Below, piece by piece: positions 29,106 to 58,947 of a DNA stretch of 64,000 bases (positions are counted from its first letter, which is position 1; the number at the start of each line of letters is the position of its first letter). The stretch spans positions 1,760,001 to 1,824,000 of the forward strand of contig CH464491.1 in assembly GCA_000002445.1 (NCBI GenBank). The letters are read 5' to 3'. The stretch comes from Trypanosoma brucei. Its lineage: Eukaryota. Under the pieces are notes generated by a model. That model did not search any database and had not been told where the DNA came from. It was given only the letters and a program-made list of their open reading frames with translations. The translations under genes were made by a program, and so were the position numbers.

Positions 29106-32100
29106 TCAAAAAGACCACTGCGCAGTGGGGAATCTCAACCCTTCCTCACTGCGTGACTGAGTTTCAGACGGCTCACCACCAATACTTGAAGGCCCAAATG
29201 ACTTGATGCCAAATAAACCAATACCCGGTGAGGTGCTGAGATTCGCTATGGGTGTTGATACATATGTGTAGCGCGGTTTCTCGGGGAAGGCGCAACCTGC
29301 AGTCATCGAACTGCTCCCAGAATAGGGAACAGAAGGGGAGCTGGTCTGAGGTGACAAACGTAGCAGTGGATCACTCGGTACACCATTAGGTGTGAAACCA
29401 GCGTGTGGCACCGCGCCGCTTGCCGGCTGCGCTGATATTGGGGGTGTTGGGGTATACGGGGCGGCATTGGCGTCAAGCGAAAAACGTGACGTGGAATCGG
29501 GGGCACCAAAAACTGCTGTGACGGTAAATCCACCGTTGCTTGTGGGGCTACTCCTGTCTGTAATGGGTGCATCGTCACTAACCTCGCACGTGAGTTGTGA
29601 AATATCAATCGGGTGTTGGTGCCGCTGTGAAGGCGGAGGTGAGGATGCATCACAAGTGACTGCCAGAGAGCCGAGAGCATTTCCGCCGTTGTTATTTGCC
29701 AGCATCGTAGTAAACGGCGGACGCTTCGAGTATAATTCCCACGATAGATCCATGGCAAGACAACCTGTCGCGGGGGGCGCAAAGCTGCTACCCCCACCCA
29801 CCGTGCCCGCCGATCGCGGCAACGGAACGGACACCCCCGCACCGTTTATGGAACTGCCGGTTACGCCAACTGGGCTAACTGCACGTGTCCCCGTTGTTCC
29901 TTGTTCAGCAGGATGGAGTTGGGGTGTGAGGTTGGTAGAGGGAGGCGTGCCCGCGGATGCGTCCAGAGCCGAATCCTTCGTTGCTGCGAACACAAGAAAG
30001 GACTGGACATCGTCGATAGCCAGCTTGTCGTGGCGCGTTGCCGTCAGCCCCGGTATGTTCAGAGCCACCGGCATGTCTGCACCTCGATGTTGCCCAAACC
30101 CTTCCCACTCCTTTTTGCGTTCCACCAGGGCCTTCTTGTCTTTCTCAATGCGCGACAAAGTTTCACACAAACTTTTGAATTGGCGTCGGAGCTCCTCTAG
30201 CTTGCGGTTGTCCTCCTCAATTTGATTCTGGAGTCTCTGCACATTTTCTTCCTCTTTGGCCTTTTCTTTTGACAGTTTTGCAACTTGGGTGCGATTGGCG
30301 GCAACCGTTTGAGTTAATGAGTTCAACTCGCGCTGCAGTTCCGGGTTGGGTCCAACCTTTGCAAGAAGCGCCTTACGTTCACGTTCTTTCTTCTTCTGTA
30401 CGGCCTTCTGACAACCCCTGTTGTAGTCATCCATCAGCTGGCGGTGAGCGTTGACACACATTTTATTGAGAGCCTCACGTTCCTGAGTTTCGAGTTTTTC
30501 AAGCTTTTGAACGGCCTTCTCTACCTCCTTTCGGCGTTTCCCCTCCGCTGCCGAGGTTCCCGTCAGTTCTGCCGAGTTTACTTGATGTGAACCCGAGACA
30601 CCCTTTCCGCTGTTGGTGTTGCTGGTGGTCTTTTTACTTCCGCTGTCAGCAAAGGGAGTTCCATCGAGGTTAAGCAAGTTAAGGGCAAACTGGAATGTGA
30701 GGCGGTCTTCTGCGGAATTGTAGAGTCTGTAGTCACGCTGTGCATTGGCCTGGCTGCGCAAGGCGACGGTGAGCTGAACAAAGTTGTCGTAACCAACCAG
30801 CTCACCTGGCGCAGCCTCTACTTCCTTTTCCAGGAACAGTACCGGACGTTCCTTGAGGGCATTTTGACTTGATAAATCCTCTCCATTCCCCTCACTGCCG
30901 TTGTTGTTGTTGTTGTTGTTTTTGTTGTTCCTCCGCTTCCTCTTTGGGTCCTGCGACCGAATCACCATACGGGCACGCAGAGGACCACTATGACGATGCC
31001 ACACGTGGAAAGTCAGCTCATTGTCACATAGCATTAATATAGCTTGCCATCTTATTTTTTTGCAGCTGAATTGGTTGCTTATCAGGCGATGTAGCGGTAG
31101 CTCCTCCAGAAGTTCAGCATTGTCAACAGTACAGGTGTAGCGGCCAGGAGCATGTTCGTGAATCTGCATCTGTGGCATCAACGGGCACTTAGTAACGGGA
31201 GGAAAGCCGCGGCACATAGGGTAGAAGTGACTGCTTATTTTTTCCGCAAGGCACTCAGCCCTCACATTGAAGTCAAGGGGTTCCTTCCCTGCACAATCGG
31301 TGGAAATGGAAAGCTCTCGGCAGATATCCTCCAACAGGGGCAAGGGAAGCGGGGAAAAATACATGAAGACGGCGAGGGCGGAAGCCGCCATGCAAACGAC
31401 ATCTTTCTGGCAGTCGCAATCCTTGTAGCCGAAGGCATGTGAGAAATATTCCAACTTCTTGCCTCCCAACGATTTAATTTGCCTCCTCAGATATAATAGC
31501 TTCTCCATCCGCTCCTCTTCACGAATTCCTGAGGACGTGGTTACGCCGTTAGCATTGTTGCCACTCCCACCTGCGATGCTTCCTTCCCTGCCGCTCTCAA
31601 GGGATGCGGTGTTGACACTCACATTACATTTGCCTCGCCGTTGGTTGCTGTTTGGTGGTTCGGACGACGACGATGCGAACCCGCGTTGGTCCATGCGATC
31701 TGATGTGGCTAGGCAAATTGAAACAGTGAGAGAGCAAATCCTGCTCGCAATGCCCACGCGACAGGCATCTTCCCCATATTCTTCCCCTCCAACTCCCCAG
31801 TACTTCGCTGCCGGTCGCAGTGTGCTTGCGCTTAGCGGCGCCAACTTGTTAACAATTGCGCTGTGCTCATCGGTATCGTCGAGATACGAAAGCTGAGAAT
31901 CGCCGCCACTCTCGCTGCTCCCTGCGTAAAGCACGTCCCCATCTTCATCCCCATCGTCGGCAGATTGGTCCCTTGCGGTAAAGGATTGGCAGCACACCTT
32001 GAGGTCCCTTTCAGTGAGCAAAAGGTATGGCGGAAGAGACACGTCGCCTTCGCCCCCCCTGCGTGCATGAAATGGAAGGTCTGAAGTAAGAATGGGGCAA

Positions 32101-32957: not shown

Positions 32958-35900
32958 TTTGAGAATTATTCTTTTTATGCACGTGTGTATATGGTGTATG
33001 ATCCCCCTCCCCTCTCTCCCTTGCTATTGTTCGGCGGGAACGGCTGTATTAACACGTTCTTGCTTCCACAGGTATTGCACTCCTCCTGCTCCTGTTCTCG
33101 TCTGCTTTCACCCCTTCCTTTTCTGCAAATACGTTGGCTCACTTGCCACTGTCCTCCTGCCACCTTCCACAGTGAAGACTCCCTCTTCCGCAGGGGTTAT
33201 TTGGATTTCTAAGATTTCTTCCCTTTTCCTTTCCCTCTCCCTTCACTCGCGCCAGCTGGTGCACTTCTCCACTTGAATTCCTTCCGCTTAGCGACACCTT
33301 TTCTTTTCACTATCCCCTCTCCTTTACTTTTTCCCCCTCCTATTTGTCACTTTCCTCTTTTCTCTTAATTAATTTCCGAATGCACCCTTCTGTGTTCTCT
33401 CTTCCTTTATTTTCTCCGTCACTCTCGTCTCTCTCTCTCTCTCGTCACACACAGTCAGATACACCGCTTGCCTACCTTAGAAATAAACGTGAAAACTCAC
33501 CTTCGCTTTGGCAGTCCTCACTTGTAATAATGGTGGTTTCGCTGGATTACTAAGTACGTGCGCGAGGAAACAGATGAATATATTCAAGTATGTTGCGCAG
33601 ACAAGAAGGGGTAAAAGAAGAGAGAAGAAAAAGTAAGATAATTGTAGCATTCTTTTTTTTTCTTTGCCCACAGTAGTGCATACTCAGTTAAACTTTTCAT
33701 CAGCGGTGAGGTAGGTCCAGGATATAAAACATCCGCATAAAATGCATAAAAGAAGGTTGGGCTGCGTAAAACAGGTAAAAGTAAAAAAAAAGGAAAGTGA
33801 AAAATGAAAACTCAATGAGAAATACGGAAAAGAAAAGAGCGATCATCTCCAAGTTGAAAGAAGAAGATGCATCCACATTTCCATTTATGAGGAAAAGGTT
33901 GTTGCACTCTTTCTTTCTTTCCCTCCTTTTTGCTCCTCCACTTCCTTCCATTCCTTTGCCATCTCTTCTTCTTCTTCACCCTCTTCCTTATTTTCCTGCA
34001 TACTGCCATTCCTTCTGCATCAGCTTTCACTCGTTTTGTGTTTTTCCTTGCTTTTTTTTTTGCTTTCTTTAATTTTTTTTATTCCCCTCCCTTTACAAGA
34101 ACTTCGCTCTGGTCACGCTCTCCGTCTCTCTCTCTCTCTCTCCCTCTTCCTCTTCCTCTCTCTCTTCCTTTTTCTCCTCCTCCTTCACCCACGTAACCAC
34201 TAAATCACACCGCTTCCCCTTTCACACTCATACAAACACGCATGAGCATATATATATATATATATATCGTGTACAAAACAATAAAAATAAAGAAGAACAC
34301 TTACACATTGCTGCCTCAAGCGCCCTCTCTCCTTTTCCTTTTGTATGTCTCATTCACTTACTTCGCCTCTCTCCTTCTTAATCCATTTCCCCTCCCCTCC
34401 CCTCCATACACATACACATACACACACACACCTTCCACCTCTCTCTCCCTCCCCCTTTCCTTTATTTCTTACTTTCCTCCACACACACACATAAGTACAA
34501 ACATAAATATATAAATATATATTATGAATAAGCACACAAATATGTATCTTATTCAGCCTCTTCGTGTGATGTTTCACTTCATCATTCGCCTTCCTCTCTC
34601 TCTCTTTTCTCTCTCTTTTTTTTTTTTAAATGCCGGTGGTAGCGGTGACGTGACGGTAAGGATGAAGGGATACGGGACGTGAAAGTGGCAGTTAAGCAAA
34701 TAATGTAAAGAACAAAAAAAATTGAAGGGACACTTGAAGATTTTAAGGAAGATGTGAAACAGAGAAAGAAAAACACAGGTAGGCAACGGTCCACTTATTT
34801 ATATAGTATTATTATGAAGATGGTGGATGATTTTTGTTTTAGTTTTTAACAGGGCGGTGAAAGGGGCTAAAACAGTGGGAGGAGGTAAAGGTAACAGGTG
34901 ATGTGAGAGAGAGAGAAAAAAAAAAGCACACACACACACAAACAAAAGAAATTATTCAAGACGACGAAAAAAAGAAAAAAAAGAAGGAGAAAACATGGTG
35001 AAAACAAAAAAAAAACGAAAAAGAAAGGGAAAGGAAGCGAACGAACGGACAAACGGAAACCAGCAGCTCTTTGAGATCCCTAAGGTCTTACTCTTGTCTC
35101 TCTCACATATTCCCTCTTTCCTCATCCCTCTTTTCTCCACACCTCCCGAGCCGCACAAAATGTAAAATAATAATAATAGTAGTAGTAATGGTGATGGTAT
35201 AAATAATAATAATAATAACAATCGGCCTCCGTGTGTATGACAAAACAAAAAAAACAAAGATAGAGGGAAGAAAGAGAAAGAGAGGTGATAGAAAATAAAT
35301 AAAATCAACAAGTGGGGGGGGGAGGGGGGAAGACGGAGCCTCACCTTTTTTGTAACTTTCCGTTGTGGTGTGGAGAAAAAAAAGGAGGGGAGATGTGGAA
35401 ACAAAGATAGACATGTGCACCATGCATTGCGCTCATTTTGCATTTGCATATATAAATATATATATATAAATGTATAAATTTTATTTTATTTTTCTTCCTT
35501 CCCAAGTAAAAATTCCTATCTTCCTTCCCTTTGCACTACCCTGCTTGTTTGCTTGCTTATTCTCCGCTGCGGCTGCTGCACACCTCCCAATACCTATCCT
35601 TCATCTCAGTTTCCTTCCCCTTCCCTTTTCCTTTCCCTTTTCTTTTTCCTTTGTATTCTTTCCTACTTCACTTCCTCACTAACTCTTCCATCTCCTCACT
35701 CTCCTTTTCGTACATACACATTACAGGAAAAAACAAAGAAGGAGGAAAGGTAGGGGTAGAGGGGGAAAAAAAAATAAAAGTATAAACACAAGAAGTAACA
35801 AATGGAAAGGGAAAAAAGAAAAAGAAAACAACGGTGAGGAAGGGAAGAAGTAAAGGAGTTGCTGAAGGGGGAAATCGCTACAGGATGAGGGTGCCACCAA

Positions 35901-36632
35901 AACATCGATCGCCAATAACACAAATAACAACAACAATAACAATAACAATAGCAACAACAGTACATATTGGTGCCAATATAATGATGATGCGGACGGAGTA
36001 AAAGCTCTACAAAGAGAAAAAAAAAGAGAAAAAAGCGAGGGCTGCAAAGAAGTATTACTCGTTGTTTTATTCTTCGGCTCGGTTCGCTCATACACGCCAC
36101 ACACACAAAAAAAAACGCGTGACCACACGCGTTCACGCAATTTTCTCTGCACACTTATCCGCCAACCTCAACCACCCACCTCCTCATCTATCTTGTACGG
36201 GTATTTCCCCCGCTCACCTATTTCTTAGCTTGTTTGGATTTCACGTTTATTATTATTATTATTATTGTTACTTACCTTGCCTCTCACGAAATTAGACGCA
36301 ACGAAGGGGAAACTTCAGCCTCCTTCTTCATTCACGTTTCGAAGTCGTTGGGGAGGAGTGTCTCTCGGATGCAGAAAAAAAAATAATAATAAATGGAAAG
36401 CATGGCAACCCGGAGGTCCCCATCACCCCAACAACTGTCCTAAGTCGTACTGCATAAAAATAAACTTAGGGCGAGAAAAAGCATGGGACATTGAAGGTCG
36501 CAGTAGCAGACCCCGTCCAGAGGAGTTCCTAAAGCGATCACACACTTGTGAACAACTGGTGCAATCGGCAGTTGACTGATACGGAGTACTTGAGACCATG
36601 CGTTTGGTATACCTTCAATTACGGGTATACAC

Positions 36633-36846: not shown

Positions 36847-38172
36847 CTACCACCTATTAGGGAGAGCGGGCCCTCCCATATATCCACCAGAGTTACGTTG
36901 CCCAAACATCTGATTGACGCCACCATCGGCGCCTCCCATCGGGCGGCCAGCCGAAAAACCTCCCATATGTGGACCACCCCTCATCGCATTCCCGCGACCC
37001 ATGTGAGGAGGGACATCCACTCCGCGGTCGCCAAAATTCTGATTGCGCTGCATTAGGTAATGACCACCACTGTAGTAATGATTGTGATCATACGGCGGCA
37101 CCATTACGCCAGCGTTGGGAGTCCAATGGTCGTTACGCCCGCGGCCGCCCCACGGCATGCCGTCTTGCGTTCCCGTTTGATACGTGTAGTTGTTGCCAAC
37201 ATGCTGCGGAGGTTGCGGTGGTGGTGGTAGTTGGGTTTGCGAGGTCACTGGAAGTGAACTGGGAGCCTGGCGGAGCGGTGCGGGTTGCTGCTGTATCATT
37301 TGTTGTTGTTGTTGCTGTTGTTGTTGCTGCTGCAATTGCTGCTGCTGCTCCACCAGCCTGCTGCGTTCCCTCTGAAGACCATCACTTTGGTCGTTCAGCT
37401 GCCGTTCTTGGGCGAGCAGGCGAGCATGCTTTTCATTCATCTCAATTTCCCGCTGTTTGCGGCACTCTTCAAACAAATGACGCTCATTGTAAAGGTTAGC
37501 GCGTCCCTTTTCCAACTCAGCCATCGCGGAGTCAATTCGCTGGTGACTAGCCGGTGCCTCAAACACTACACGGGGTCCCTTCGAGTGTGCCTCAACGACT
37601 TCAGCTGGGTATGTTACAATGTAGGTTACTGGTTTGGCCTGTGGGGGTACCACAGGGTGTTGCGGGGTTATGTCGCTGGAAAAAGTGTAGTCATCATCGT
37701 TTGCCCAACTAAAGTTACCGTTGCTCTCCGGTAGTGTGACGGTAGGCTGTGGTTTAGGAGGTTGTTGGGGCTTGGGTGTCGGAGTAGGTTGCTTTTCCAC
37801 TACAGGAGATTCTTCTACCGGTGTGGGGGGAATCTCCACCGGTGCGACTACAGCTTCTACGGTAGGTTCCTCCGCTACAGGAACTTCGGGTTCCGGCACC
37901 GCTACCTCCGGCGGCTCGGGCGTACGTGGCTTTTCCACGCGGACAGTTTGCTTCGTCACGTTGGTGCGTAGCGCCTCCAGAAAAGTTTTCCCGGATGAGG
38001 TCTTTGATGCATTTGTGATCTGTGCCTTAATTGTTGGGCCAGCGGGAACCACGACATCATCCGCTTTGTTTTCCTCGCGCTTCGGCCGGCCGGTCTCGTT
38101 GCTGGGGCGGCTGTCCAGCTTGTGGTTGCCGTTCACATTGGCGTGTTGTTTCGGATTGTTTTTTGGAGGCAT
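36847..38172 (-). CDS. Low-complexity protein rich in Gln/Pro, with a coiled-coil, a poly-Q run and an RGG/GY-rich C-terminus, 441 aa
   Basis: ATG confirmed at 38170-38172. The protein contains LLAQERQLNDQSDGLQRERSRLVEQQQQLQQQQQQQQQQQMIQQQ, encoded by (CAA/CAG)n at about 37290-37350. The C-terminus reads GRGRNDHW...MGRGNAMRGGPHMGGFSAGRPMGGADGG...SGGYMGGP. This looks like an RNA-binding low-complexity-domain protein. Confidence 0.6.
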   Translation of the reverse strand: MPPKNNPKQHANVNGNHKLDSRPSNETGRPKREENKADDVVVPAGPTIKAQITNASKTSSGKTFLEALRTNVTKQTVRVEKPRTPEPPEVAVPEPEVPVAEEPTVEAVVAPVEIPPTPVEESPVVEKQPTPTPKPQQPPKPQPTVTLPESNGNFSWANDDDYTFSSDITPQHPVVPPQAKPVTYIVTYPAEVVEAHSKGPRVVFEAPASHQRIDSAMAELEKGRANLYNERHLFEECRKQREIEMNEKHARLLAQERQLNDQSDGLQRERSRLVEQQQQLQQQQQQQQQQQMIQQQPAPLRQAPSSLPVTSQTQLPPPPQPPQHVGNNYTYQTGTQDGMPWGGRGRNDHWTPNAGVMVPPYDHNHYYSGGHYLMQRNQNFGDRGVDVPPHMGRGNAMRGGPHMGGFSAGRPMGGADGGVNQMFGQRNSGGYMGGPALPNRW

Positions 38173-39448
38173 ACTTGTATACTCTTCTTCTCTACCTCCA
38201 GTAATTTCCTTAACTTACTTTCAGTTCTTCTGATACTTATTTTATTTATCTTAGTTTCTTCCTCCCCTCTCCTGTCGTTTGTTTTATTACACTTTTCCTC
38301 TTCCTGTCCTTTGAATACCGTGAACTTTGTGTCTACTTTCGATTCGCCGCCGGTATGTTTGCTATGACTTCACCTTCTTTTCTCCCTTGTTTGGTCTTCC
38401 CTTTACGATCTGGACTTAGTTTAAATACTTTATTGGCTGATATTTTGTTGGGAGGCTTCTGAGTTATTTCTCTCTTTTTCCTTGTTAATGCTTATTTTTC
38501 TCTTCTTTTTTTTTGTATTTGTTTGTTTGTATTTTGTTTTCTCCTGTTCTCTCTCCTTTAGCTTACTCAAGTTATTATGTAAACAGTACCTTTCCTTCTT
38601 TTATTCTTTTAATTTTGTTTTTAGTGAGTGTGTGTTAAAGAGTTCTTACTATTTGTCCTCTCCTTTTTCTCTTTTTTTTCCTTTTAGTTTTTTTTCCTTT
38701 AAAAAAATTCTCCTACTGGTAAAATTTATTGGCGTTACAATTGTTTTTGCCAAGTGCAACGTTTCGGACAGAAAGATGAAAGAACGAATAAGAAAAACAA
38801 AAGTAGCGGAATGAAAACGAAAAAAAAATAGATAAAAAAATACACACAAAAAAAAATGGCTCATCCGATCATTAATAACAAATAACTTCACCGCACAAGT
38901 CACTGCACATAAGGAGAATCCCATACAAGATTCCGCACACTGTAAGAAAGAGGGGGAAGGAAGCAAACGCAAAAAAAAAACACGCTGGCAAACAGACGGT
39001 GGTGCATGAAAAGGCGATGAAGCTGTTTAGTAGGAAAAGTTATAAATTAAGCACATACGAAGCGGTCTTTAGGGGTGGGAAGGAAACACTTTTACAGCAT
39101 AACATCGCCAATAATAGTGATAATAACAACAAATGGGAATTACTGAGGGGATAAAAAGACGTTACACTAAACCTCTACAATACTAATATATATATGTATG
39201 TATGTGTGTGCAACATCAACCACTCATATCTCCGCCTCCATTATTTCTTCCCACAACATCAAACTCCCTTTACTTCGTCGCACTTGAATCACAGTCACCA
39301 ATATACGATTTCTCGTAACAAGCACGCCACCCATGTCACAAGTATTCAGTAGTCAAAGAAAAAGAAACAAAACACGCACACACACAATTGAAAAAGGAAA
39401 AGGAAGAAAGAAAGAAAGGAAACAGACCCTTCTCTACCCAATCAAGTT

Positions 39449-40636
39449 TTACCAATCGTCCACAGCAATACCGAAATCACGATCCCTGCAGCAGTAATAT
39501 GGTGCCAGCAACGACCACAAGTACAACAGTACAGCTGACCATACCGTGCCGCTTCGCACCCAGTAGGCGATGTTAATACTGCTTTTCATTTTGTCCTCAC
39601 CCATGCCACTTACATGCCAACCCGTTGAAAGCATCGCCAAGTACATGGAACCGAGCATCATTACGGTGTAGAAAAACATGTAACTGCTGAGGTGGCCGCT
39701 CTCCTCGGGATCCTCCTCAACATCATCATCCCCAACATGACCGAACCCTTTGCTGCTACCCCCTGTGGAAACAACGCTATACACAAGCGTGAAACCGCTC
39801 ACAATACTACCAATAATTATTTGCTTCAATGAACCGGCCTCATTAGGTGGTATAGCAATTGTGTTACAGTTGGCATCGTCGCCCATGCGGAGTGTAACGA
39901 ACATGACACCAGCCGTGTAGGCAAAGACAATTCCGCTTGATACTATCGAACCATGCGGTAAATAAATCGACAGCACCGTGTAAACCACAGCACTGATAAG
40001 CACGCTCAAAATCGCGAAAGCGTTGTAATTGCAGTTCACATTTGGGACAAACACCACAAAGGACATAGCAGCAATTGCAATGCCAGCTATGTAACTCAGC
40101 ACGGCAACTATCAGCAGATACCACAACCATTTGCTGTTTTGCTCCATCCTCTCCCCCCACTCCTCAGTCCACTGATAGCTAAAGTCGATGAGGAACACCA
40201 CATTTATTAGCAGGAAGAGTCCTGAAGCAAAGACGCAGGTGTACGCATAATATGCAAAGAATGTATTTGGTACCCACATTGTCGCAAGAAATAACAGGCC
40301 AAGTAATATGGTCTTGGCGAAGAAGAACCGCCTCTGAAACTCCACACGTGACTCGGTGTCGATGCAACACGTAAGGTCCGAGACAGAAAGAAGGTGCAAG
40401 AAGAAGAACAAAGAAAGAGAGAAACTGACGCGATAGGCAAGAACTTCACCCACACAAAAGTTTGCGTCCCCTTTGCCAGCGTACTCACAGCCTTTCTTAA
40501 TAAGTGGGAGATGGCTCAGCAGTGTAAGAAAGCCGCGCAACAACATGGTCGCAACGATTCCCACGAAGAGGTACAGAGAATATTGCACCCGCAACACAAC
40601 TGTTGGGGAAAGAGAAGTACCATCACTCGAACCCAT
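39449..40636 (-). CDS. Serine incorporator (SERINC/TMS1) family polytopic membrane protein, 395 aa from the first ATG
   Basis: The track start at 40660 is GTG; the first ATG is at 40634-40636, giving MGSSDG... (human SERINC1 starts MGSVLG). FLLINVVFLIDFSYQWTEEWGERMEQNSKWLWY matches SERINC1 [33 protein letters not shown]. The C-terminus FFYTVMMLGSMYLAMLS...WSAVLLYLWSLLAPYYCCRDRDF matches SERINC1 FFHFMLFLASLYIMMTL...[23 protein letters not shown]. Confidence 0.85.
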   Translation of the reverse strand: MGSSDGTSLSPTVVLRVQYSLYLFVGIVATMLLRGFLTLLSHLPLIKKGCEYAGKGDANFCVGEVLAYRVSFSLSLFFFLHLLSVSDLTCCIDTESRVEFQRRFFFAKTILLGLLFLATMWVPNTFFAYYAYTCVFASGLFLLINVVFLIDFSYQWTEEWGERMEQNSKWLWYLLIVAVLSYIAGIAIAAMSFVVFVPNVNCNYNAFAILSVLISAVVYTVLSIYLPHGSIVSSGIVFAYTAGVMFVTLRMGDDANCNTIAIPPNEAGSLKQIIIGSIVSGFTLVYSVVSTGGSSKGFGHVGDDDVEEDPEESGHLSSYMFFYTVMMLGSMYLAMLSTGWHVSGMGEDKMKSSINIAYWVRSGTVWSAVLLYLWSLLAPYYCCRDRDFGIAVDDW

Positions 40637-40865
40637 CACAACTAAAAAAAAAAGAATCACCTATGGGAGAAACGACTTTCCTTCGCTCTCCCTCTATAAA
40701 TATCCTTGTATATAGTCGAACCCTTCGCGCAGGCTCACCTTTTTTGTCCCTGAGTTTAATCCCTTTCGGATTATCTGAAAGATTACATTAGTAATGAAGC
40801 GAAGGGTAATGTAAGAGCATGAGGCAATATGCGTGGTTTCATACTTACAGGGAACCGTCTCGGGT

Positions 40866-41649: not shown

Positions 41650-44514
41650 TTATTCAAAACGCGGATCATCAACCGCAGCTGAAAAATGAACGTAACCCAT
41701 CTCCCCACCTCCTATGCTGTAGGTTTTGCGAAGCACATCTGCCTGTGCAGGACTCAGCTGTACACCGAGAGACATAAGCGTTGCAAAAAATTGTCCCTCC
41801 TTTACAAACCCCTTACGAGCCCTGTCGTATTGCCTGAACGCAGGAAGCGAGACGGATCGCCGAGAGGCGAGGGTACGGCGCACCCTATCCATCACAGATG
41901 CATGGAAAGATTTATCACCTTCTTCTGTCGCCTTTTCCGCCGGTGGGGCGGCTGCAATGTGGGGAAGATTTTCGGAATTCCCAGCGGCCGCGTAAGCAGC
42001 AAAGGTTGTGGCGCTTCCACTGTCGTTCCGTTGCTGTGGCCCCATCCGCCGTGTAATGTTTTGCAACATATGTGTCACCACTGCCAGGAAGGTGGGGTAG
42101 TCCACATGATTTTCCATCTCCGGATGAGCAAAAGAGATTTCGAGCACCCTCAGTTCCTCCTCCGTAAGCTCGATACCGAGAATAGACAAGCAGTGCCTAA
42201 ATCGTGAGTTTGTTACATGCCGGTGCCGCAATTCATCACCGTCTGGGAAAAACTCCGCGAGTCTCGGTTTGCGCTCTTGAAGAAAGTAACAGATCTTCAG
42301 CAGCACCTCATCCAGAAACTTTTCCTCATCCCCAACGTTTCGTTGTGTGCTGCCGGCGCATGTGGATGCTGGAAGTGACGCTGTGAAGGTTGCACCGTTG
42401 CCGTTGATAGTCTTTTGAAATTCACCTACAGCCAACTCGCCTAGGCCAATGTCCCCAACAAAACGCCTGTATTCGATGGACTCCTTGTCATCCGCCGCCG
42501 CGTAGTAACGAGACAGTAGATCAATCTCCGCTGCCGTCAGGGCAAAGCGATGGCGGGCAAGTCCCTGCTGGAAGTTTGTTCGGGTAATCTTCGCCCGGTG
42601 GAACCGGTCAAAGTCTGCAAAGAAGGGTAGCAGGAGAGCCTGGTGTGAGCTCACGTCGTGGGAAAGTCGAGCACGCAGTCGTCCAAGCTCCTCAAGTTCA
42701 GCAGCAGTAAGCTTATCATCGGGGTTCTGGATCGTTTCCTTTAGCGTAATAGCCGCCTCGCCCTTTGCACTACGGGATGCAGTAAAATCATATCTGGTGG
42801 AAACGGAAGGCACAGCCGACGGCGCTACCTGCCCGATATCAGCGATGAAGCGGTTCGTGTCAACGTGATCCCGCACCTTTGTGGAGGCGTATTCCTTCTT
42901 CAGCAGGTCCGCCTCACTGGGATGCAACTTCACACCGGCGATACCGAGAGCAACTATGAACTTGTCCGTTTGCACAGTCCCGCCGCGAAGCGGATCAAAG
43001 TCAAAGAAGAACTCACTCACACGCAGGTGACGTTCCTCCGCCTGCATTGCAATCTTCACCAACACATTCACTACCGTGTCGGCAGGAAGTGGCCGCGACA
43101 GCTCAACACTCTTTTGCAGCTCTGCCATAGCAGAAGAGTTTAAAATCCGCGACGCCCCCGTGTCCCATTTCACTTCATCTACGTCCATGACGAACTGGAA
43201 GTAATTTACCTCATCGGCGGGGCCGCCGTCGGGAGCGCGAATGGAATACCGCCTCACGAGAAGCTCGATCTCTTCCGGCTTCAGAAAAATTTTGTGAGTT
43301 GCCAGCGAGCGAATAAAGCGGGAAGCAGTGCATGTGCGGTGCTCGTAGATACCCTTCCGTGCGCGGTCGAAATCATGCATAGTTGGAACCAGATGAATAC
43401 GGTTAGAACGAATAATCTGCCGCACCTTCCGCAACACCGCCTCCGTCTGTTGCTGCTCTTGTTGATTCGTTGCATCGATGAACTGCCCGGGCGCCCTTGT
43501 TTGTGCCAAATAGTTCGCTGAACCGCCGTCAGCCTCCGTGTGCCGCGGGTTGGTGTCAGCAAGGAACTGAACATAATTCACACGCACGAAAGGATTCTCA
43601 TCCATTCCTGGCTTTTCAACCAAGGTTGATTCATCGGCATACGCTCGCGTGAGCATCGCTATGTTCTCCGCAGTAAGTTTTGCGTCAACAAGGCGGAGCT
43701 GGCCGAGGGCAGACTCAAACTGGGGTGCAGTGACAAAGCCCGTCTTGAAGTGATCATAGTCACGCAGGTAATCGTCACAGCGCAAGTGATACATAGAGAA
43801 TTGTTCTCGCAACATGCGCAGCAAACCATCAACGGTGTGAAAGCCGCTTCGGCTCCGCAAAAAGTTCTTCAGTGGAGCAGCGGTGGGCGAATGTTGACTC
43901 ATTTCTTGGGGCTTATCCTCGATGTCATTGCACCATGCAGAGTACAAAACATCCCCGTCCTCATTCTTATACTTCTTAATGAATAGCTTAATTACCTCCT
44001 CACGCAGTCCTTCAAACGGAATGCAGCGACGAAACACCGAGGCCGATACCTTACCGCTTCGGAAATGGTCAAAATCTTCAAAGCATTTACGCAACTGGAG
44101 CCCGCGCACCCGAGAGATATCACGGATCGATTGCATGGCGGCGCGCAACTGCGCCTCCTCTGCATCCGACAGCGAATTTGGCTTGCGCTTCAACGTGGTG
44201 AGCAACTCCGGAGGCGGTTCCTCTGCCTGCAGCGCCTGAAGGAAGTTCGTATAACTCACAAGAGACCCGGCACCACGTGGTGTCACTTCGCCTGAGCCCC
44301 CATGAGTGTATGGAGCTGCAAAGGCATCGGTAATTGCATCAAACTCTTCATCGCTGACCGGTATGTTATTAACGGCAAGTGCCCGACGCAACTGCCCTGC
44401 TGTGATACGGCCAGAGTTCAACTTGTCGAAATCGGTGAAGAAGTCATTGAGACGCAGGCGACGCTGGGCAGCATGCACTCGCACTCGTTGAAGTACGTCT
44501 CCTACTAGAGACAT
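41650..44514 (-). CDS. Protein made of eight tandem modules of roughly 100 aa, each with a degenerate EF-hand-like motif, 954 aa from the first ATG
   Basis: The track start at 44532 is TTG; the first ATG is at 44512-44514. Eight repeats fit the pattern h..F.DFD....G.[IV]....F...L......L...E...L...Y. The motif-bearing segments are LNDFFTDFDKLNSGRITAGQL, LRKCFEDFDHFRSGKVSASVF, CDDYLRDYDHFKTGFVTAPQF, LVPTMHDFDRARKGIYEHRTC, VSEFFFDFDPLRGGTVQTDKF, LLPFFADFDRFHRAKITRTNF, LAEFFPDGDELRHRHVTNSRF and LPAFRQYDRARKGFVKEGQF. Confidence 0.7.
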   Translation of the reverse strand: MSLVGDVLQRVRVHAAQRRLRLNDFFTDFDKLNSGRITAGQLRRALAVNNIPVSDEEFDAITDAFAAPYTHGGSGEVTPRGAGSLVSYTNFLQALQAEEPPPELLTTLKRKPNSLSDAEEAQLRAAMQSIRDISRVRGLQLRKCFEDFDHFRSGKVSASVFRRCIPFEGLREEVIKLFIKKYKNEDGDVLYSAWCNDIEDKPQEMSQHSPTAAPLKNFLRSRSGFHTVDGLLRMLREQFSMYHLRCDDYLRDYDHFKTGFVTAPQFESALGQLRLVDAKLTAENIAMLTRAYADESTLVEKPGMDENPFVRVNYVQFLADTNPRHTEADGGSANYLAQTRAPGQFIDATNQQEQQQTEAVLRKVRQIIRSNRIHLVPTMHDFDRARKGIYEHRTCTASRFIRSLATHKIFLKPEEIELLVRRYSIRAPDGGPADEVNYFQFVMDVDEVKWDTGASRILNSSAMAELQKSVELSRPLPADTVVNVLVKIAMQAEERHLRVSEFFFDFDPLRGGTVQTDKFIVALGIAGVKLHPSEADLLKKEYASTKVRDHVDTNRFIADIGQVAPSAVPSVSTRYDFTASRSAKGEAAITLKETIQNPDDKLTAAELEELGRLRARLSHDVSSHQALLLPFFADFDRFHRAKITRTNFQQGLARHRFALTAAEIDLLSRYYAAADDKESIEYRRFVGDIGLGELAVGEFQKTINGNGATFTASLPASTCAGSTQRNVGDEEKFLDEVLLKICYFLQERKPRLAEFFPDGDELRHRHVTNSRFRHCLSILGIELTEEELRVLEISFAHPEMENHVDYPTFLAVVTHMLQNITRRMGPQQRNDSGSATTFAAYAAAGNSENLPHIAAAPPAEKATEEGDKSFHASVMDRVRRTLASRRSVSLPAFRQYDRARKGFVKEGQFFATLMSLGVQLSPAQADVLRKTYSIGGGEMGYVHFSAAVDDPRFE

Positions 44515-44939
44515 CGGTAAAGATGTCTGCAATCTAATCTACACACTCACTTAGAAGTTAGTGATGACGAAGCGGTACAATTCCTCTGGACCGACACACG
44601 CCTCGTTACGAATGAACTCTCCTACTACTTGGAGTTTCCTGGCGGTCACCGAAAGAGGGGAAAAAGAGAAAAACAAGATAACGCAAGAACGGGAGGTAAA
44701 GGACAAAACGGCTAGTATCTAAGGTACGCACGAGAAAAAAAAAAGTCGACGTGGGCTAATTCAGTGCACGGGAGAACAAATGGGAAAAGGAGGAGCATGG
44801 CTTGTTTTCATCCAATTTATCTTCTCTACTAGAGCCCTCACCACCGGTGCACCTCTCCCCTTTATACATCCCCCTACACAGTAGTAAGTTTGGAGTAAAA
44901 AGGGGGAAAAAATATACGGCACTAAGCGAGGCGTAACTC

Positions 44940-46654: not shown

Positions 46655-48052
46655 TCACCTGCCAGCCGCACGTTTCCGTTTTATGCCTTTCTTCACTGCC
46701 GTCAGTCCCGGCAGTTCGAAGGGGAAAAAGAAGTCAGCTATCCCACAGCTTCCGTTATCCGGTACCAGTTGGCCAGACCTTGCTGTGCCACTCCTAGGCA
46801 ACACAACGTCCTGCTCGTTCACATCAGCGGAAAGGAAAATGTCGTCCCAACCCTCCAATGAGGTCCGAGTGGGTTCCCTTTTGACAGAATCCCGCTTTAA
46901 AGCATCGGGTGCCTCTCCATGGGATGGAGTACGTGATGGCAAAGCGCGTTCACCGCCCCCTTTCATGCCTCGACTCCGTCCACCCTCACCACTGCAAGCC
47001 GCTGAATTCCCATCAAATCTCGCCCTTTGGCTTGACGCAAGGCTGCCACCTCCGACTCTCCTCCTCTTTATAACTATCGGTGACTGTGATCGGGTGACCT
47101 TTCCAGATGTACCACTTGGGGAACAATGAATGTTGACCACAGGTTTATCGGTATTCGAAGCACGTTCCGCGGATCCTACAGCACGCGTATTGACATCACC
47201 GTTGTCTTTCAATGGGGCGACAGCGGGAGAGCCCATACTCGAGGCCTCACCCTCACCCTTCGCCTCCGTGTTGGCACTTTCCGCCAAACTGCAAGGGGAA
47301 GAAACGAACGGCGGTGTCGGCAGGTAATCCATTGCAGTTGGGAGACAACACAAAAACTGCTGGATGCGTTGAATGTGTTCCCCTTCACATAGGCAGCGTG
47401 CGAATACGTGGAAACGTAAAAGTAGTTGATCACTCGAAAGCGACTCTTCCGCACCCAGTTTAGAGCCAGGGCCAAACTCTATCGTAAGAAGCGGCTGCTT
47501 CCACGATGTTCCAGAGGAGGGATCGAAGAGTACTGAAGGTGATGTATCCCCAGTTGCCAAGCGCTTGCCGTTCACAAATGTTCCATTTTTACTTCCACAA
47601 TCACGGACGCTAAGAGCACACCACAACCCCGCGTCCGGTGAACCACGCAGCGGTTCTCGACCAGCGAGTTGCACGACACAGTGCCGACGCGAGAGAAATG
47701 AACCCAGCAGCTCCCCTTCAAACTGTATTACTCCACTGTTCTCCCTGGGATCCCTACCAAGTGGAAGGAGGCAAACGAGAGGAAGATTTGCCATCCCACA
47801 TCGATTCCCTCCACCTGTAGAGTTGAAGTTCTGAGAGGGAAGTGAGCAACCGTTCTCCGTGCTTCTAGATAGGAAGCGAGCCACAAGACGGCACCGTTTG
47901 TAACCACTCACTGAGGAACTTCGGACACGCATCGGTAACAAACCCGAAGGAGTCTCCTCCAGGCACTTTGTTGGCTGGGATACTGTTGCACTCAAACCGC
48001 CCAGGTCCGCAAGTGCCTTCAGGTTATGTGCAGCAACTATAGCAATCTCCAT
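46655..48052 (-). CDS. FHA-domain protein, 465 aa
   Basis: ATG confirmed at 48050-48052. The FHA signature ...HCVVQLAGRE...LWCALSVRDCGSKNGTFVNGKRLATGD (GxxNGTFVNG) sits at about nt 47500-47650. A Ser-rich, basic tail with a KRKR motif follows. Confidence 0.65.
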   Translation of the reverse strand: MEIAIVAAHNLKALADLGGLSATVSQPTKCLEETPSGLLPMRVRSSSVSGYKRCRLVARFLSRSTENGCSLPSQNFNSTGGGNRCGMANLPLVCLLPLGRDPRENSGVIQFEGELLGSFLSRRHCVVQLAGREPLRGSPDAGLWCALSVRDCGSKNGTFVNGKRLATGDTSPSVLFDPSSGTSWKQPLLTIEFGPGSKLGAEESLSSDQLLLRFHVFARCLCEGEHIQRIQQFLCCLPTAMDYLPTPPFVSSPCSLAESANTEAKGEGEASSMGSPAVAPLKDNGDVNTRAVGSAERASNTDKPVVNIHCSPSGTSGKVTRSQSPIVIKRRRVGGGSLASSQRARFDGNSAACSGEGGRSRGMKGGGERALPSRTPSHGEAPDALKRDSVKREPTRTSLEGWDDIFLSADVNEQDVVLPRSGTARSGQLVPDNGSCGIADFFFPFELPGLTAVKKGIKRKRAAGR

Positions 48053-57354: not shown

Positions 57355-58947
57355 TTAGCCGTTCTCACTGCTCACGGTTTGTCCTGGAGCTCCCGACGAT
57401 GGTGTCGTCAATGATGCGCGCATTAATGCTGACGGTGCAATTCCCAACTTCACATTCTGTGGAGAAACCATGGATGACGCCACGCTATCACTATTTTCGG
57501 TGATGCTGCTACTGCCACCCCTAACACCACATTCGCTGGCTCCACTCTCACTCATCTGAACACCCTCCACAACACCCTTTCGTAGGAACTCCCTTGCTTT
57601 TCGCAACAACTCCTTCTTGTCCATACCCTCCCAATCCCGCAGCGGCTTCGACAATGGGCTGTATTCCAACACGGGGAAAGAGAGCCCACCCAAGTGCGAA
57701 GCGTATATGCTCTTTCTACGGGGTTGTCTATGACTAATAACGACACGGTGGAATAGGTCGAGGCCTTTATGGCGGCTGTCTCGCCCGTATCGTGCGCTAT
57801 TATGTGTTTCCCGCGGTGGAAGGCTACCATGAACCTCCACAACACCGGTACGTGGTGGCGGTCCCTTAAGGGCACCACAGGCACCTGATGTTGATATTAA
57901 CTCACTCCCTTTTGGCAGAACAAGGGCTCCCTCCTCCTCCTCACGCGCCATGTCAATAAGATAGGATTTTAGGTCGAGTATGTGCTTGTCATCCACCTCC
58001 GAAGGGTATAAAGCATGTTCAAAATGCGCAGCCCGCAAAAGAGCTAAGCGAGCCGGCTCCCTCTTCTTCTTCTTTGGAATTAGGTCCCCCGAATCTCTCC
58101 GCAGCGCCGTGCATAAGGGCGCCTGTGCTGTTAACGGCGCGGCAGCTAGCATCTTGGCTCCACATTTGATATCCTCATAGGCGTTTTGCAATTCTTTCTG
58201 TGCGATACTACTCAACCTCTGCTGCTGCTCACTGTTGTAAAACGTTGCTCGATCGTATACTCGCTGCATCACATGTTCTTCAACATACTTCTTGAGCGAC
58301 TCCACATGAGTGGTATCCAACACAGCGAAGTCGGCGAGAGGAGACTTGTTGCAGTAGTCTCTCTGGATGGCAAGTAGGATGTTTTTTGGATGTTTAAAGC
58401 GACTCATAGCAGAGGCAGAGTACTGGTTAAAGACGTGTTGGTCAAGGTTGGGGTCAGGTGCCCACACATAACCCTCACAGGCCCCAATGTAACGTGTGTT
58501 ATGGCGTAGTTGATAAGCGCATTCGAGACTGGCCATAAAACACGAATCAAAGACCATCGCCTCAAATTTTCGCTTGCCGAGAATGGAGGCGAGCTCATGG
58601 CATTGCAACGCCAGTTTGTTCTCCTCTAATTCCAGGTAATCTCCCATCCCATGACCACCGTACACAAAATAACTCCGACCGGGGTCGTGGCAACGCTGTA
58701 GAAAGTCTTCAAGCATGTCCTGACGATAGCCAACAACATTTTCGTAGTTCTTCAATGTGTAGTCGCTCCCAGTGATACTTGCTTCAAAGCTCCCACCACT
58801 GGAGTTAAAGGCAAGCATGCAAAGATCGGTAACGCCCTTTACCTTCCTCATTTGCTGAAACTTCCAGAATGGCCACCCCGACACATTTTTAATGCAACTG
58901 CAGACCACGATGAGGCGGTTATTTGGTCGTGGGGCTCGGGACAACAT
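57355..58947 (-). CDS. PNT1: Clan CD, family C11 (clostripain-like) cysteine peptidase resembling PNT1, 530 aa
   Basis: ATG confirmed at 58945-58947. The His block is FVYGGHGMG with His at residue 99 (codon 58651-58653). The Cys block is MVFDSCFMAS with Cys at residue 136 (codon 58540-58542). The spacing and motifs are those of the clostripain His/Cys dyad. Residue numbers 99 and 136 match what I recall for T. brucei PNT1; that is from memory. Confidence 0.75.
   Translation of the reverse strand: MLSRAPRPNNRLIVVCSCIKNVSGWPFWKFQQMRKVKGVTDLCMLAFNSSGGSFEASITGSDYTLKNYENVVGYRQDMLEDFLQRCHDPGRSYFVYGGHGMGDYLELEENKLALQCHELASILGKRKFEAMVFDSCFMASLECAYQLRHNTRYIGACEGYVWAPDPNLDQHVFNQYSASAMSRFKHPKNILLAIQRDYCNKSPLADFAVLDTTHVESLKKYVEEHVMQRVYDRATFYNSEQQQRLSSIAQKELQNAYEDIKCGAKMLAAAPLTAQAPLCTALRRDSGDLIPKKKKREPARLALLRAAHFEHALYPSEVDDKHILDLKSYLIDMAREEEEGALVLPKGSELISTSGACGALKGPPPRTGVVEVHGSLPPRETHNSARYGRDSRHKGLDLFHRVVISHRQPRRKSIYASHLGGLSFPVLEYSPLSKPLRDWEGMDKKELLRKAREFLRKGVVEGVQMSESGASECGVRGGSSSITENSDSVASSMVSPQNVKLGIAPSALMRASLTTPSSGAPGQTVSSENG

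What the first reader, a model, noticed from the sequence alone, without database searches (positions are those of the whole stretch)
41650..44514. Protein built from eight tandem degenerate EF-hand-like modules of about 100 aa
Eight consecutive modules share the skeleton h..F.DFD....G.[IV]....F..[AC]L......L...E...L...Y over the full length of the protein. The DFDxxxxG[IV] loop is EF-hand-like but lacks the canonical Dx[DN]x[DN]G and Glu-12 ligands. These may be calcium-insensitive pseudo-EF-hands used as a scaffold. Large poly-EF-hand proteins of the EFCAB6/DJBP type are ciliary or flagellar in other eukaryotes, so a flagellar or cytoskeletal role is plausible for this one. The track start is TTG; the first ATG at 44514 should be the true start.
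Basis: seen in the sequence. Interest (0 to 1): 0.55.

Follow-up and report, generated by a model that had tools for sequence, protein, structure and literature searches.

The report
Trypanosome CFAP115, a flagellar microtubule inner protein

Summary
The minus-strand ORF 41650-44514 encodes a 954-aa protein with eight homologous modules, spaced 105-136 aa apart. A profile built from any seven modules finds the eighth at 36-61 bits, against 6 bits or less for shuffles.

Each module is a long helix followed by a pair of EF-hands, so the protein has 16 helix-loop-helix motifs. None of the 16 loops has a canonical calcium-binding sequence.

The protein is already known. It is identical over all 954 residues to PDB 9E5C chain 3J, from the cryo-EM model of the 96-nm repeat of the T. 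brucei flagellar doublet microtubule. It is also identical to XP_828720.1 (UniProt Q385C3). Its full-length relatives in solved doublet structures are named CFAP115/FAP115 in Leishmania (E=3e-175), Tetrahymena (4e-57) and Chlamydomonas.

Published work places CFAP115 in the A-tubule lumen on protofilaments A02/A03, where it acts as a lattice "linker". The eight-module form repeats every 32 nm. Odd and even modules form two classes, which fits four bilobed (NTD+CTD) units per protein.

The EFCAB6 comparison is a related module type, not the same family. Novelty: already known. Interest: low.

The parts
41650..44514 (-). CDS of T. brucei CFAP115 (954 aa plus stop at 41650-41652); identical to XP_828720.1 / UniProt Q385C3 and to PDB 9E5C chain 3J
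44215..44514 (-). Module 1 (residues 1-100), odd/NTD-like class: long helix plus EF-hand pair; first loop DKLNSGRITAGQ
43900..44169 (-). Module 2 (residues 116-205), even/CTD-like class; first loop DHFRSGKVSASV
43540..43842 (-). Module 3 (residues 225-325), odd class; first loop DHFKTGFVTAPQ
43165..43461 (-). Module 4 (residues 352-450), even class; first EF loop carries a 5-residue insertion
43336..43350 (-). Insertion IYEHR (residues 389-393) in the first EF loop of module 4. The motif DFDR.RK[GA]I[YH]EHRTCT is nearly invariant in 24 kinetoplastid-type homologues and absent from Tetrahymena CFAP115.
42820..43089 (-). Module 5 (residues 476-565), odd class; first loop DPLRGGTVQTDK
42430..42708 (-). 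Module 6 (residues 603-695), even class; first loop DRFHRAKITRTN
42061..42330 (-). Module 7 (residues 729-818), odd class; DFD degraded to DGD; first loop DELRHRHVTNSR
41653..41919 (-). Module 8 (residues 866-954), even class; DFD degraded to QYD; first loop DRARKGFVKEGQ
44515..44745 (-). Probable 5' UTR and trans-splice acceptor region. It holds a polypyrimidine tract (about 44650-44745), then AG dinucleotides (44640-44639 and 44629-44628), an in-frame TAG at 44541-44539, and no upstream ATG. The acceptor site is inferred from sequence only.

Best explanation
The ORF is the Trypanosoma brucei orthologue of CFAP115 (FAP115), a microtubule inner protein of the flagellar axoneme.

The protein is a chain of eight EF-hand-pair modules joined by flexible linkers. 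Each module is a long leading helix followed by two helix-loop-helix motifs. The modules alternate between two classes. Two successive modules therefore correspond to one bilobed FAP115 unit (NTD plus CTD), which is the whole 230-aa protein in Chlamydomonas, and the trypanosome protein holds four such units.

[quoted passage not shown] The NTD-type lobe sits on protofilament A02 at the intradimer interface. [quoted passage not shown] One molecule thus spans 32 nm and clamps lateral and longitudinal lattice contacts, which stiffens the doublet against beating stress.

The EF-hand loops have lost the calcium ligands (position 3 is hydrophobic, position 12 is Gln, Lys or Arg). The fold is therefore most likely used as a rigid tubulin-binding block, not as a calcium sensor.

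Shown here: the identity, the eight-module architecture, the two module classes and the loop degeneracy. Taken from the literature on orthologues: the position on A02/A03, the 32-nm period and the stabilising role. Inferred: calcium insensitivity, and that the T. brucei protein behaves like its orthologues.
For: **Identity**
- The protein matches PDB 9E5C_3J over residues 1-954 at 2151 bits with no differences. That entry is the 'Cryo-EM structure of 96 nm repeat of microtubule doublet from T. brucei flagellum', with chains 3J, 3K and 3L.
- It is an exact match to XP_828720.1 / Q385C3 of T. brucei brucei TREU927.

**Family**
- L. tarentolae CFAP115 (9E78) E=3.2e-175; Tetrahymena CFAP115 (8G3D) 3.9e-57; Trichomonas 9D5N_CG 1.2e-48; Chlamydomonas FAP115 (6U42_5X) 3.1e-05.
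- Foldseek with the AlphaFold2 model ranks the same chains first, and aligns 226 columns to the 221-residue Chlamydomonas FAP115 chain.

**Architecture**
- Leave-one-out module detection succeeds for all eight modules.
- AlphaFold2 shows eight folded blocks, each a long helix plus two helix-strand-helix motifs, separated by low-confidence linkers.
- Profiles of the odd and of the even modules each find exactly 8 stretches in the T. brucei, Leishmania, Tetrahymena and Trichomonas proteins.
- The odd/even split is the best of the 35 possible 4+4 partitions.
- In other species the odd profile hits odd modules best and the even profile hits even modules best.
- 91 of 169 family members have 8 modules, with a median length of 943 aa.

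**Literature on orthologues**
- The FAP115 unit is bilobed, NTD plus CTD with two EF-hands each. It bridges protofilaments A02/A03, and knockout leaves 40% of doublets defective (PMC8742875).
- TtCFAP115 repeats every 32 nm and CrFAP115 every 8 nm (PMC10105768).
- The Tetrahymena knockout swims more slowly and has a longer power stroke (PMC8693976).
- L. tarentolae CFAP115 is listed with a periodicity of 32 nm and eight built blocks (PMC7617938 supplement).
- Trichomonas FAP115 repeats every 32 nm (PMC12041511).

**Loops**
- There are no PS00018 matches, and none of the 16 loops has an acidic residue at position 12.
- Over 1,139 modules of the family, first-loop position 3 is D/E in 0%. Position 12 is Gln in 62%, Arg/Lys in 23% and D/E in 3%.
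Against: - I could not read the 9E5C coordinates or the accompanying paper (Xia et al., Science 2025, not held). The protofilament position and the 32-nm period in T. brucei itself are therefore inferred from orthologues and from the three chains in the 96-nm model.
- The three 9E5C chains hold only 650, 556 and 94 modelled residues, fewer than three complete copies.
- The mapping 'odd = NTD-like, even = CTD-like' was not confirmed against Chlamydomonas FAP115. Both profiles hit its N-terminal lobe best.
- The stabilising role may be dispensable for swimming in trypanosomatids. CFAP115 is not among the nine MIPs whose deletion significantly reduced swim speed in L. mexicana.
- Calcium insensitivity rests on sequence only, and the literature still lists FAP115 among MIPs with putative calcium-binding domains.
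Confidence: 0.93

Rival explanations
1. It is CFAP115, but its EF-hands are functional calcium sensors. Luminal calcium would change how the protein grips the A-tubule lattice, and so alter flagellar waveform.
For: - The fold is EF-hand.
- Position 1 Asp is 98% conserved and position 9 is Thr/Ser in 81% of first loops.
- 16% of second loops in the family keep an acidic residue at position 12.
Against: - There are no PS00018 matches, and none of the 16 loops in this protein has Asp or Glu at position 12.
- Family-wide, first-loop position 3 is never acidic, and position 12 is Gln, Arg or Lys in 85% of modules.
- From general knowledge of EF-hands (not tested here): the bidentate Glu-12 is the key ligand, and Glu-to-Gln substitutions at this position disable sites in calmodulin.
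Confidence: 0.06
2. It is the trypanosome counterpart of EFCAB6/DJBP. It would then be a poly-EF-hand MIP at the inner junction rather than on A02/A03.
For: - The profile of even-numbered modules hits bovine, human and mouse EFCAB6 at 1.8e-27 to 5.8e-22 with up to 3 stretches.
- EFCAB6 is itself a doublet-microtubule inner protein.
Against: - Full-length phmmer to EFCAB6 gives only E=0.09-0.18, against 3e-175 to 4e-57 for CFAP115 proteins of the same length and the same eight-module layout.
- EFCAB6 is about 1,500 aa, against 954 aa here.
- Bovine EFCAB6 sits at the inner junction, and FAP115 density is absent from bovine doublets.
Confidence: 0.01

Closest known systems
CFAP115 of Leishmania tarentolae (PDB 9E78 / 9Y6S)
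   Same: Full-length homologue: 979 aa against 954 aa, E=3.2e-175. It has eight modules and eight built blocks, and is listed with a 32-nm periodicity among the conserved MIPs. It shares the IYEHRTCT insertion in module 4.
   Different: Only about 30-40% identical. Linkers differ in length and sequence.
CFAP115 of Tetrahymena thermophila (PDB 8G2Z / 8G3D), MIP6a
   Same: 940 aa with eight modules, described as four FAP115-like units. It repeats every 32 nm in the A-tubule lumen on protofilaments A02/A03 and depends on RIB72. It has the same degenerate loop signature, for example DFDRLRKGVVTEDK.
   Different: About 21-30% identical. It lacks the 5-residue insertion in the first loop of module 4. 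Its knockout phenotype is documented; none was found here for T. brucei.
FAP115 of Chlamydomonas reinhardtii (PDB 6U42 / 8GLV)
   Same: Founding member of the family. It is one bilobed unit of two EF-hand-pair lobes, and it aligns to a two-module stretch of this protein (Foldseek: 226 columns, TM 0.52 normalised to the target).
   Different: 230 aa, a single unit with an 8-nm repeat instead of four fused units and 32 nm. Sequence similarity is weak (E=3.1e-05).
EFCAB6 (DJBP), mammalian doublet MIP (PDB 7RRO, 9FQR, 8I7O)
   Same: A poly-EF-hand protein inside doublet microtubules. Its modules are recognised by the CFAP115 even-module profile (1.8e-27).
   Different: About 1,500 aa, bound at the inner junction. 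There is no full-length collinearity (E=0.09), so it is a different family.
Calmodulin and other canonical EF-hand pairs
   Same: Same fold: a helix-loop-helix pair with a short beta bridge. There are weak sequence and structure hits.
   Different: Calmodulin loops are canonical calcium binders. Here none of the 16 loops fits PS00018, and each pair carries an extra long N-terminal helix.

Membership tests
CFAP115 / FAP115 (A-tubule microtubule inner protein) | Full-length sequence homology to CFAP115 proteins identified in solved doublet microtubules | tested here: met
   9E78 CFAP115 E=3.2e-175; 8G3D CFAP115 3.9e-57; 6U42 FAP115 3.1e-05. Foldseek gives the same ranking.
CFAP115 / FAP115 (A-tubule microtubule inner protein) | Physical presence in the doublet microtubule | tested here: met
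   The sequence is identical over residues 1-954 to chain 3J of 9E5C, the cryo-EM model of the T. brucei 96-nm doublet repeat.
CFAP115 / FAP115 (A-tubule microtubule inner protein) | Bilobed units (NTD plus CTD, each an EF-hand pair), repeated four times in the long form | tested here: met
   There are eight EF-hand-pair modules. They alternate between two classes. Both profiles find 8 stretches in all four long CFAP115 proteins in the PDB. The direct mapping of the two classes onto the Chlamydomonas NTD and CTD was inconclusive.
CFAP115 / FAP115 (A-tubule microtubule inner protein) | Binding site on the luminal face of protofilaments A02/A03, in contact with RIB72 | not testable with these tools
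   Coordinates of 9E5C cannot be read here. The position is known for Tetrahymena and Chlamydomonas.
CFAP115 / FAP115 (A-tubule microtubule inner protein) | 32-nm axial periodicity of the four-unit form | not testable with these tools
   Reported for L. tarentolae, Tetrahymena and Trichomonas. The 96-nm T. brucei model has three chains with this sequence, but they are incompletely built.
EF-hand superfamily | Match to Pfam EF-hand pair model above the gathering score | tested here: met
   The whole protein scores 54.4 bits on EF-hand_7 (cutoff 30) and 42.1 bits on EF-hand_6 (cutoff 25). Taken singly, no module reaches the cutoff (best 25.2 bits), and modules 3, 4, 5 and 7 give no EF-hand hit.
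EF-hand superfamily | Paired helix-loop-helix fold with a beta bridge between the loops | tested here: met
   The AlphaFold2 secondary structure shows H-E-H, H-E-H in each of eight blocks, with block pLDDT mostly 75-90.
Calcium-binding (canonical) EF-hand | 12-residue loop with oxygen ligands at positions 1, 3, 5 and 9 and Glu/Asp at position 12 (PROSITE PS00018) | tested here: not met
   There are no PS00018 matches. Position 3 of the first loops is L, F or A, and position 12 is Q, V, T, K, N or R. The second loops are also non-canonical. The same holds family-wide over 1,139 modules.
EFCAB6 / DJBP | Full-length orthology and collinear architecture | tested here: not met
   phmmer gives E=0.09-0.18 over one short stretch. 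Only module-level profile similarity is seen. EFCAB6 also differs in length and sits elsewhere in the doublet.

The most novel reading that the evidence does not exclude
Two things in this known protein do not appear in the papers I could read.

1. The whole CFAP115 family has EF loops that cannot bind calcium in the canonical way. In the first loop, position 3 is never acidic, and position 12 is Gln, Arg or Lys in 85% of 1,139 modules. CFAP115 would then be a purely structural EF-hand protein, and should not be counted among calcium-responsive MIPs.

2. Kinetoplastid-type members carry a nearly invariant five-residue insertion (IYEHR, in the motif GIYEHRTCT) in the first EF loop of module 4. 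It could form a lineage-specific contact, or a His/Cys metal site, that marks one position in the 32-nm repeat.
Probability: 0.3. Interest if true: 0.3.

Novelty: already known. Interest (0 to 1): 0.1.

Why it matters
The finding does not open a new question. It assigns a gene annotated only as 'hypothetical protein, conserved' or 'EF-hand domain-containing protein' to a structurally defined flagellar component, CFAP115.

It also illustrates how a single-unit 8-nm MIP has been fused into a four-unit, 32-nm protein. In other species the mismatch of that 32-nm period with the 48-nm MIP rulers gives the doublet lumen a 96-nm period.

The family-wide loss of calcium ligands is a small but useful correction for anyone who counts this protein among calcium-binding flagellar proteins.

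Tried and rejected
- **Self-BLASTP.** It gave no off-diagonal hits, because the modules are only 17-31% identical. Leave-one-out profiles were needed.
They found only 1-3 modules. The skeleton is too strict for modules 7 (DGD) and 8 (QYD).
No module reached the cutoff on its own.
- **Assigning odd and even modules to the NTD and CTD of Chlamydomonas FAP115 by profile search.** Both profiles hit its N-terminal lobe best, so this was inconclusive.
- **Finding the T. brucei structure paper.** A search for '9E5C' returned only unrelated papers. Xia et al. 2025 is not held, either by PMC id or by DOI.
- **Finding a TriTrypDB gene id or TrypTag record.** Searching for Q385C3 and looking in PMC10460401 and PMC6974359 found nothing.
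- **EFCAB6 orthology.** Considered and rejected.
- **A recent DNA tandem duplication.** Rejected: Tandem Repeats Finder found nothing.
- **The antisense 173-aa ORF at 41686-42207 (+).** I did not test it and assume it is not a gene, because it lies inside the CDS and every ORF of 250 aa or more outside another CDS is on the minus strand.
Full report
**1. The observation**

The region holds one long ORF on the minus strand, 41650..44532. It is 960 aa counted from a TTG and 954 aa from the ATG at 44514.

On the coding strand the ATG is preceded by an in-frame TAG at 44541-44539. Further upstream there is a long polypyrimidine tract (about 44650-44745) followed by AG dinucleotides. No other ATG lies between them and the start. 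This layout is what I would expect upstream of a trypanosomatid trans-splice acceptor (my own knowledge, not tested). The deposited protein sequences start at the same Met.

Eight modules are present. Their D[FYG]D anchors are at residues 28, 147, 252, 381, 505, 634 and 758, with a degraded QYD at 895-897. Spacing is 105-136 aa, mean about 124.

The modules are only 17-31% identical to one another, and a self-BLASTP saw nothing. The periodicity is nonetheless far beyond chance:
- A profile of any seven modules scores the eighth at 35.8-61.3 bits, against at most 6.1 bits for 200 shuffles.
- Profile-profile comparison of the eight module positions, each built from 19 orthologues, gives 96% probability or more for every pair.
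- There is no DNA-level tandem repeat, so the duplications are old.

**2. What the modules are**

The whole protein passes Pfam EF-hand_7 (54.4 bits, cutoff 30) and EF-hand_6 (42.1 bits, cutoff 25). Taken one at a time, no module reaches the cutoff. The best is 25.2 bits, and modules 3, 4, 5 and 7 give no EF-hand hit. The assignment therefore depends on the summed score, on homology between modules, and on structure.

I ran AlphaFold2 with a 19-sequence alignment (mean pLDDT 69.8). It gives eight confident blocks separated by low-confidence linkers. Each block reads as a long helix, then helix-strand-helix, then helix-strand-helix. So each module is an EF-hand pair with an extra leading helix, and the protein has 16 helix-loop-helix motifs, not eight.

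- There are no PS00018 matches.
- With the conserved Gly set as loop position 6, the first loops read D-x-(L/F/A)-x-x-G-x-(I/V/Y)-(T/S/...)-x-x-(Q/V/T/K/N/R).
- None of the 16 loops has Asp or Glu at position 12.

**3. Identity**

A sequence search of the PDB found a chain identical over all 954 residues: 9E5C_3J, 'EF-hand domain-containing protein'. Foldseek's description line names that entry as the cryo-EM structure of the 96-nm repeat of the doublet microtubule from the T. brucei flagellum, released March 2025, with chains 3J, 3K and 3L. The exact sequence is also XP_828720.1 / EAN79608.1 / UniProt Q385C3 of T. brucei brucei TREU927, on a 5.26-Mb contig.

The next PDB hits are all microtubule inner proteins from solved doublets:

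| Protein | PDB entry | Length | E-value |
|---|---|---|---|
| L. tarentolae CFAP115 | 9E78 | 979 aa | 3.2e-175 |
| Tetrahymena CFAP115 | 8G3D / 8G2Z | 940 aa | about 4e-57 |
| Trichomonas 'EF hand family protein' | 9D5N_CG | 918 aa | 1.2e-48 |
| Chlamydomonas FAP115 | 6U42_5X | 230 aa | 3.1e-05 |

Foldseek with my model ranks the same chains first. The gene is therefore the T. brucei CFAP115.

**4. Higher-order structure of the repeat**

Published cryo-ET of Tetrahymena describes the FAP115 unit as bilobed, an NTD and a CTD with two EF-hands each (PMC8742875). The 230-aa Chlamydomonas protein is one such unit and repeats every 8 nm. The 940-aa Tetrahymena protein is four units and repeats every 32 nm (PMC10105768).

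My data fit this layout:
- Mean profile-profile scores are 95 for odd-odd pairs, 93 for even-even and 76 for odd-even.
- The odd/even split is the best of the 35 possible 4+4 partitions.
- A profile of the four odd T. brucei modules hits, as its best stretch, an odd module in Leishmania (766-844), Tetrahymena (509-577) and Trichomonas (716-798).
- The even profile hits even modules best: Leishmania 391-486, Tetrahymena 131-218, Trichomonas 832-917.
- Both profiles find exactly eight stretches in each of these four proteins.

The direct check against Chlamydomonas FAP115 was inconclusive, because both profiles prefer its N-terminal lobe.

In an exhaustive search, 748 cluster representatives match at E ≤ 0.001. 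Among the 169 sequences I held, 91 have eight modules, with a median length of 943 aa. The eight-module form is therefore the common one.

**5. How it most likely works**

From the orthologues:
- CFAP115 lies in the A-tubule lumen. Its NTD sits on protofilament A02 at the intradimer interface.
[quoted passage not shown] A linker loop touches the first DM10 domain of RIB72.
- Tetrahymena knockouts swim more slowly and have a longer power stroke (PMC8693976).
- In those knockouts 40% of doublets show defects that spread beyond the binding site. The authors call the protein a 'molecular linker' that strengthens lateral and longitudinal lattice contacts.
- In L. tarentolae the protein is listed among the conserved MIPs with a 32-nm periodicity and eight built blocks (PMC7617938 supplement). 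In Trichomonas it also repeats every 32 nm (PMC12041511).

I infer the same for T. brucei: four bilobed units per molecule, one per tubulin dimer, 32 nm per molecule. Three chains in the 96-nm model agree with that. However, they are incompletely built, with 650, 556 and 94 residues, and I could not read the coordinates or the paper.

In L. mexicana, nine MIP deletions significantly reduced swim speed and CFAP115 is not among them. The role may therefore be redundant in trypanosomatids.

**6. Calcium**

The literature lists FAP115 among MIPs with putative calcium-binding domains (PMC8595878). The sequence argues otherwise. Over 1,139 modules from 169 family members, the first loop shows:

| Loop position | Residues observed |
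|---|---|
| 1 | Asp 98% |
| 3 | Leu, His or Phe most often; Asp/Glu 0% |
| 6 | Gly 79% |
| 8 | Val or Ile |
| 9 | Thr or Ser, 81% |
| 12 | Gln 62%, Arg/Lys 23%, Asp/Glu 3% |

In the second loop, position 12 is acidic in only 16% of modules. The conserved signature D-[FY]-D-x-L-x-x-G-x-[VI]-[TS]-x-x-Q is thus a family trait under selection for something other than canonical calcium binding.

**7. Comparison with EFCAB6**

The even-module profile detects EFCAB6 modules at 1.8e-27. It also detects other MIPs: CCDC81B, RIB57, RIB35 and FAP225. So there is a shared EF-hand-pair module type among proteins inside axonemal microtubules.

EFCAB6 is nevertheless a different protein. It is about 1,500 aa, is not collinear with this one (E=0.09 full length), and is bound at the inner junction in bovine doublets, which lack FAP115 density.

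**8. Surroundings**

Sixteen of the 18 ORFs of 250 aa or more in the window are on the minus strand. The two plus-strand ones lie inside larger minus-strand ORFs. This layout fits one trypanosomatid polycistronic unit.

On the flanks of this gene lie a Serinc-family membrane protein (39449-40660) and an FHA-domain protein (46655-48052). A clostripain-family peptidase lies at 57355-58947. Nothing links these neighbours functionally to the gene.

**9. Verdict**

However, the object is a known, structurally solved protein: T. brucei CFAP115.

The points I did not see in the papers I read are minor. One is the family-wide loss of calcium ligands. The other is a nearly invariant IYEHR insertion, specific to kinetoplastid-type members, in the first EF loop of module 4.

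Noticed in passing
window 43336-43350 (-), residues 389-393: Module 4 carries a five-residue insertion (IYEHR) in its first EF loop. The motif DFDR.RK[GA]I[YH]EHRTCT is nearly invariant in 24 kinetoplastid-type homologues and is the most conserved stretch of the protein. Tetrahymena CFAP115 lacks it, and AlphaFold2 confidence is low there. The His and Cys residues suggest a possible contact or metal site.
   Followed up: partly
PDB hits of alignment A3 (even modules; window 43900-44169, 43165-43461, 42430-42708, 41653-41919): The even-module profile also detects other proteins found inside axonemal microtubules: EFCAB6 (1.8e-27), CCDC81B (2.3e-16), Tetrahymena RIB57 (4.5e-11) and RIB35 (1.9e-08), and Chlamydomonas FAP225 (6.6e-07). 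Several of these score better than calmodulin. This suggests a shared EF-hand-pair module type among luminal proteins.
   Followed up: no
family members (for example 23 proteins of 413-572 aa): Besides the modal eight-module form (91 of 169), there are sequences with four modules (23, median 481 aa) and with 2-3 modules (258-354 aa). I did not determine whether these are fragments of metagenomic contigs or genuine shorter forms with a 16-nm or 8-nm repeat.
   Followed up: no
window 1-64000: Sixteen of the 18 ORFs of 250 aa or more are on the minus strand. The two plus-strand ones (3096-3935 and 29392-30225) lie inside larger minus-strand ORFs. The pattern fits a single trypanosomatid polycistronic transcription unit.
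   Followed up: partly
window 39449-40660 (-), 46655-48052 (-), 57355-58947 (-): Neighbouring genes include a Serinc (serine incorporator) family membrane protein (1.8e-55), an FHA-domain protein (6.5e-09) and a clostripain-family (Peptidase_C11) protein (1.5e-10). Five other large ORFs in the window gave no Pfam hit.
   Followed up: partly
window 34001-36000 and 38001-40000: Two 2-kb bins have markedly lower G+C (0.389 and 0.406) than the window average of about 0.50. They lie largely between the large ORFs and are probably intergenic or UTR sequence.
   Followed up: no
window 41686-42207 (+): A 173-aa ATG ORF lies antisense to the 3' end of the CFAP115 CDS. I did not test it and assume it is a chance ORF.
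   Followed up: no
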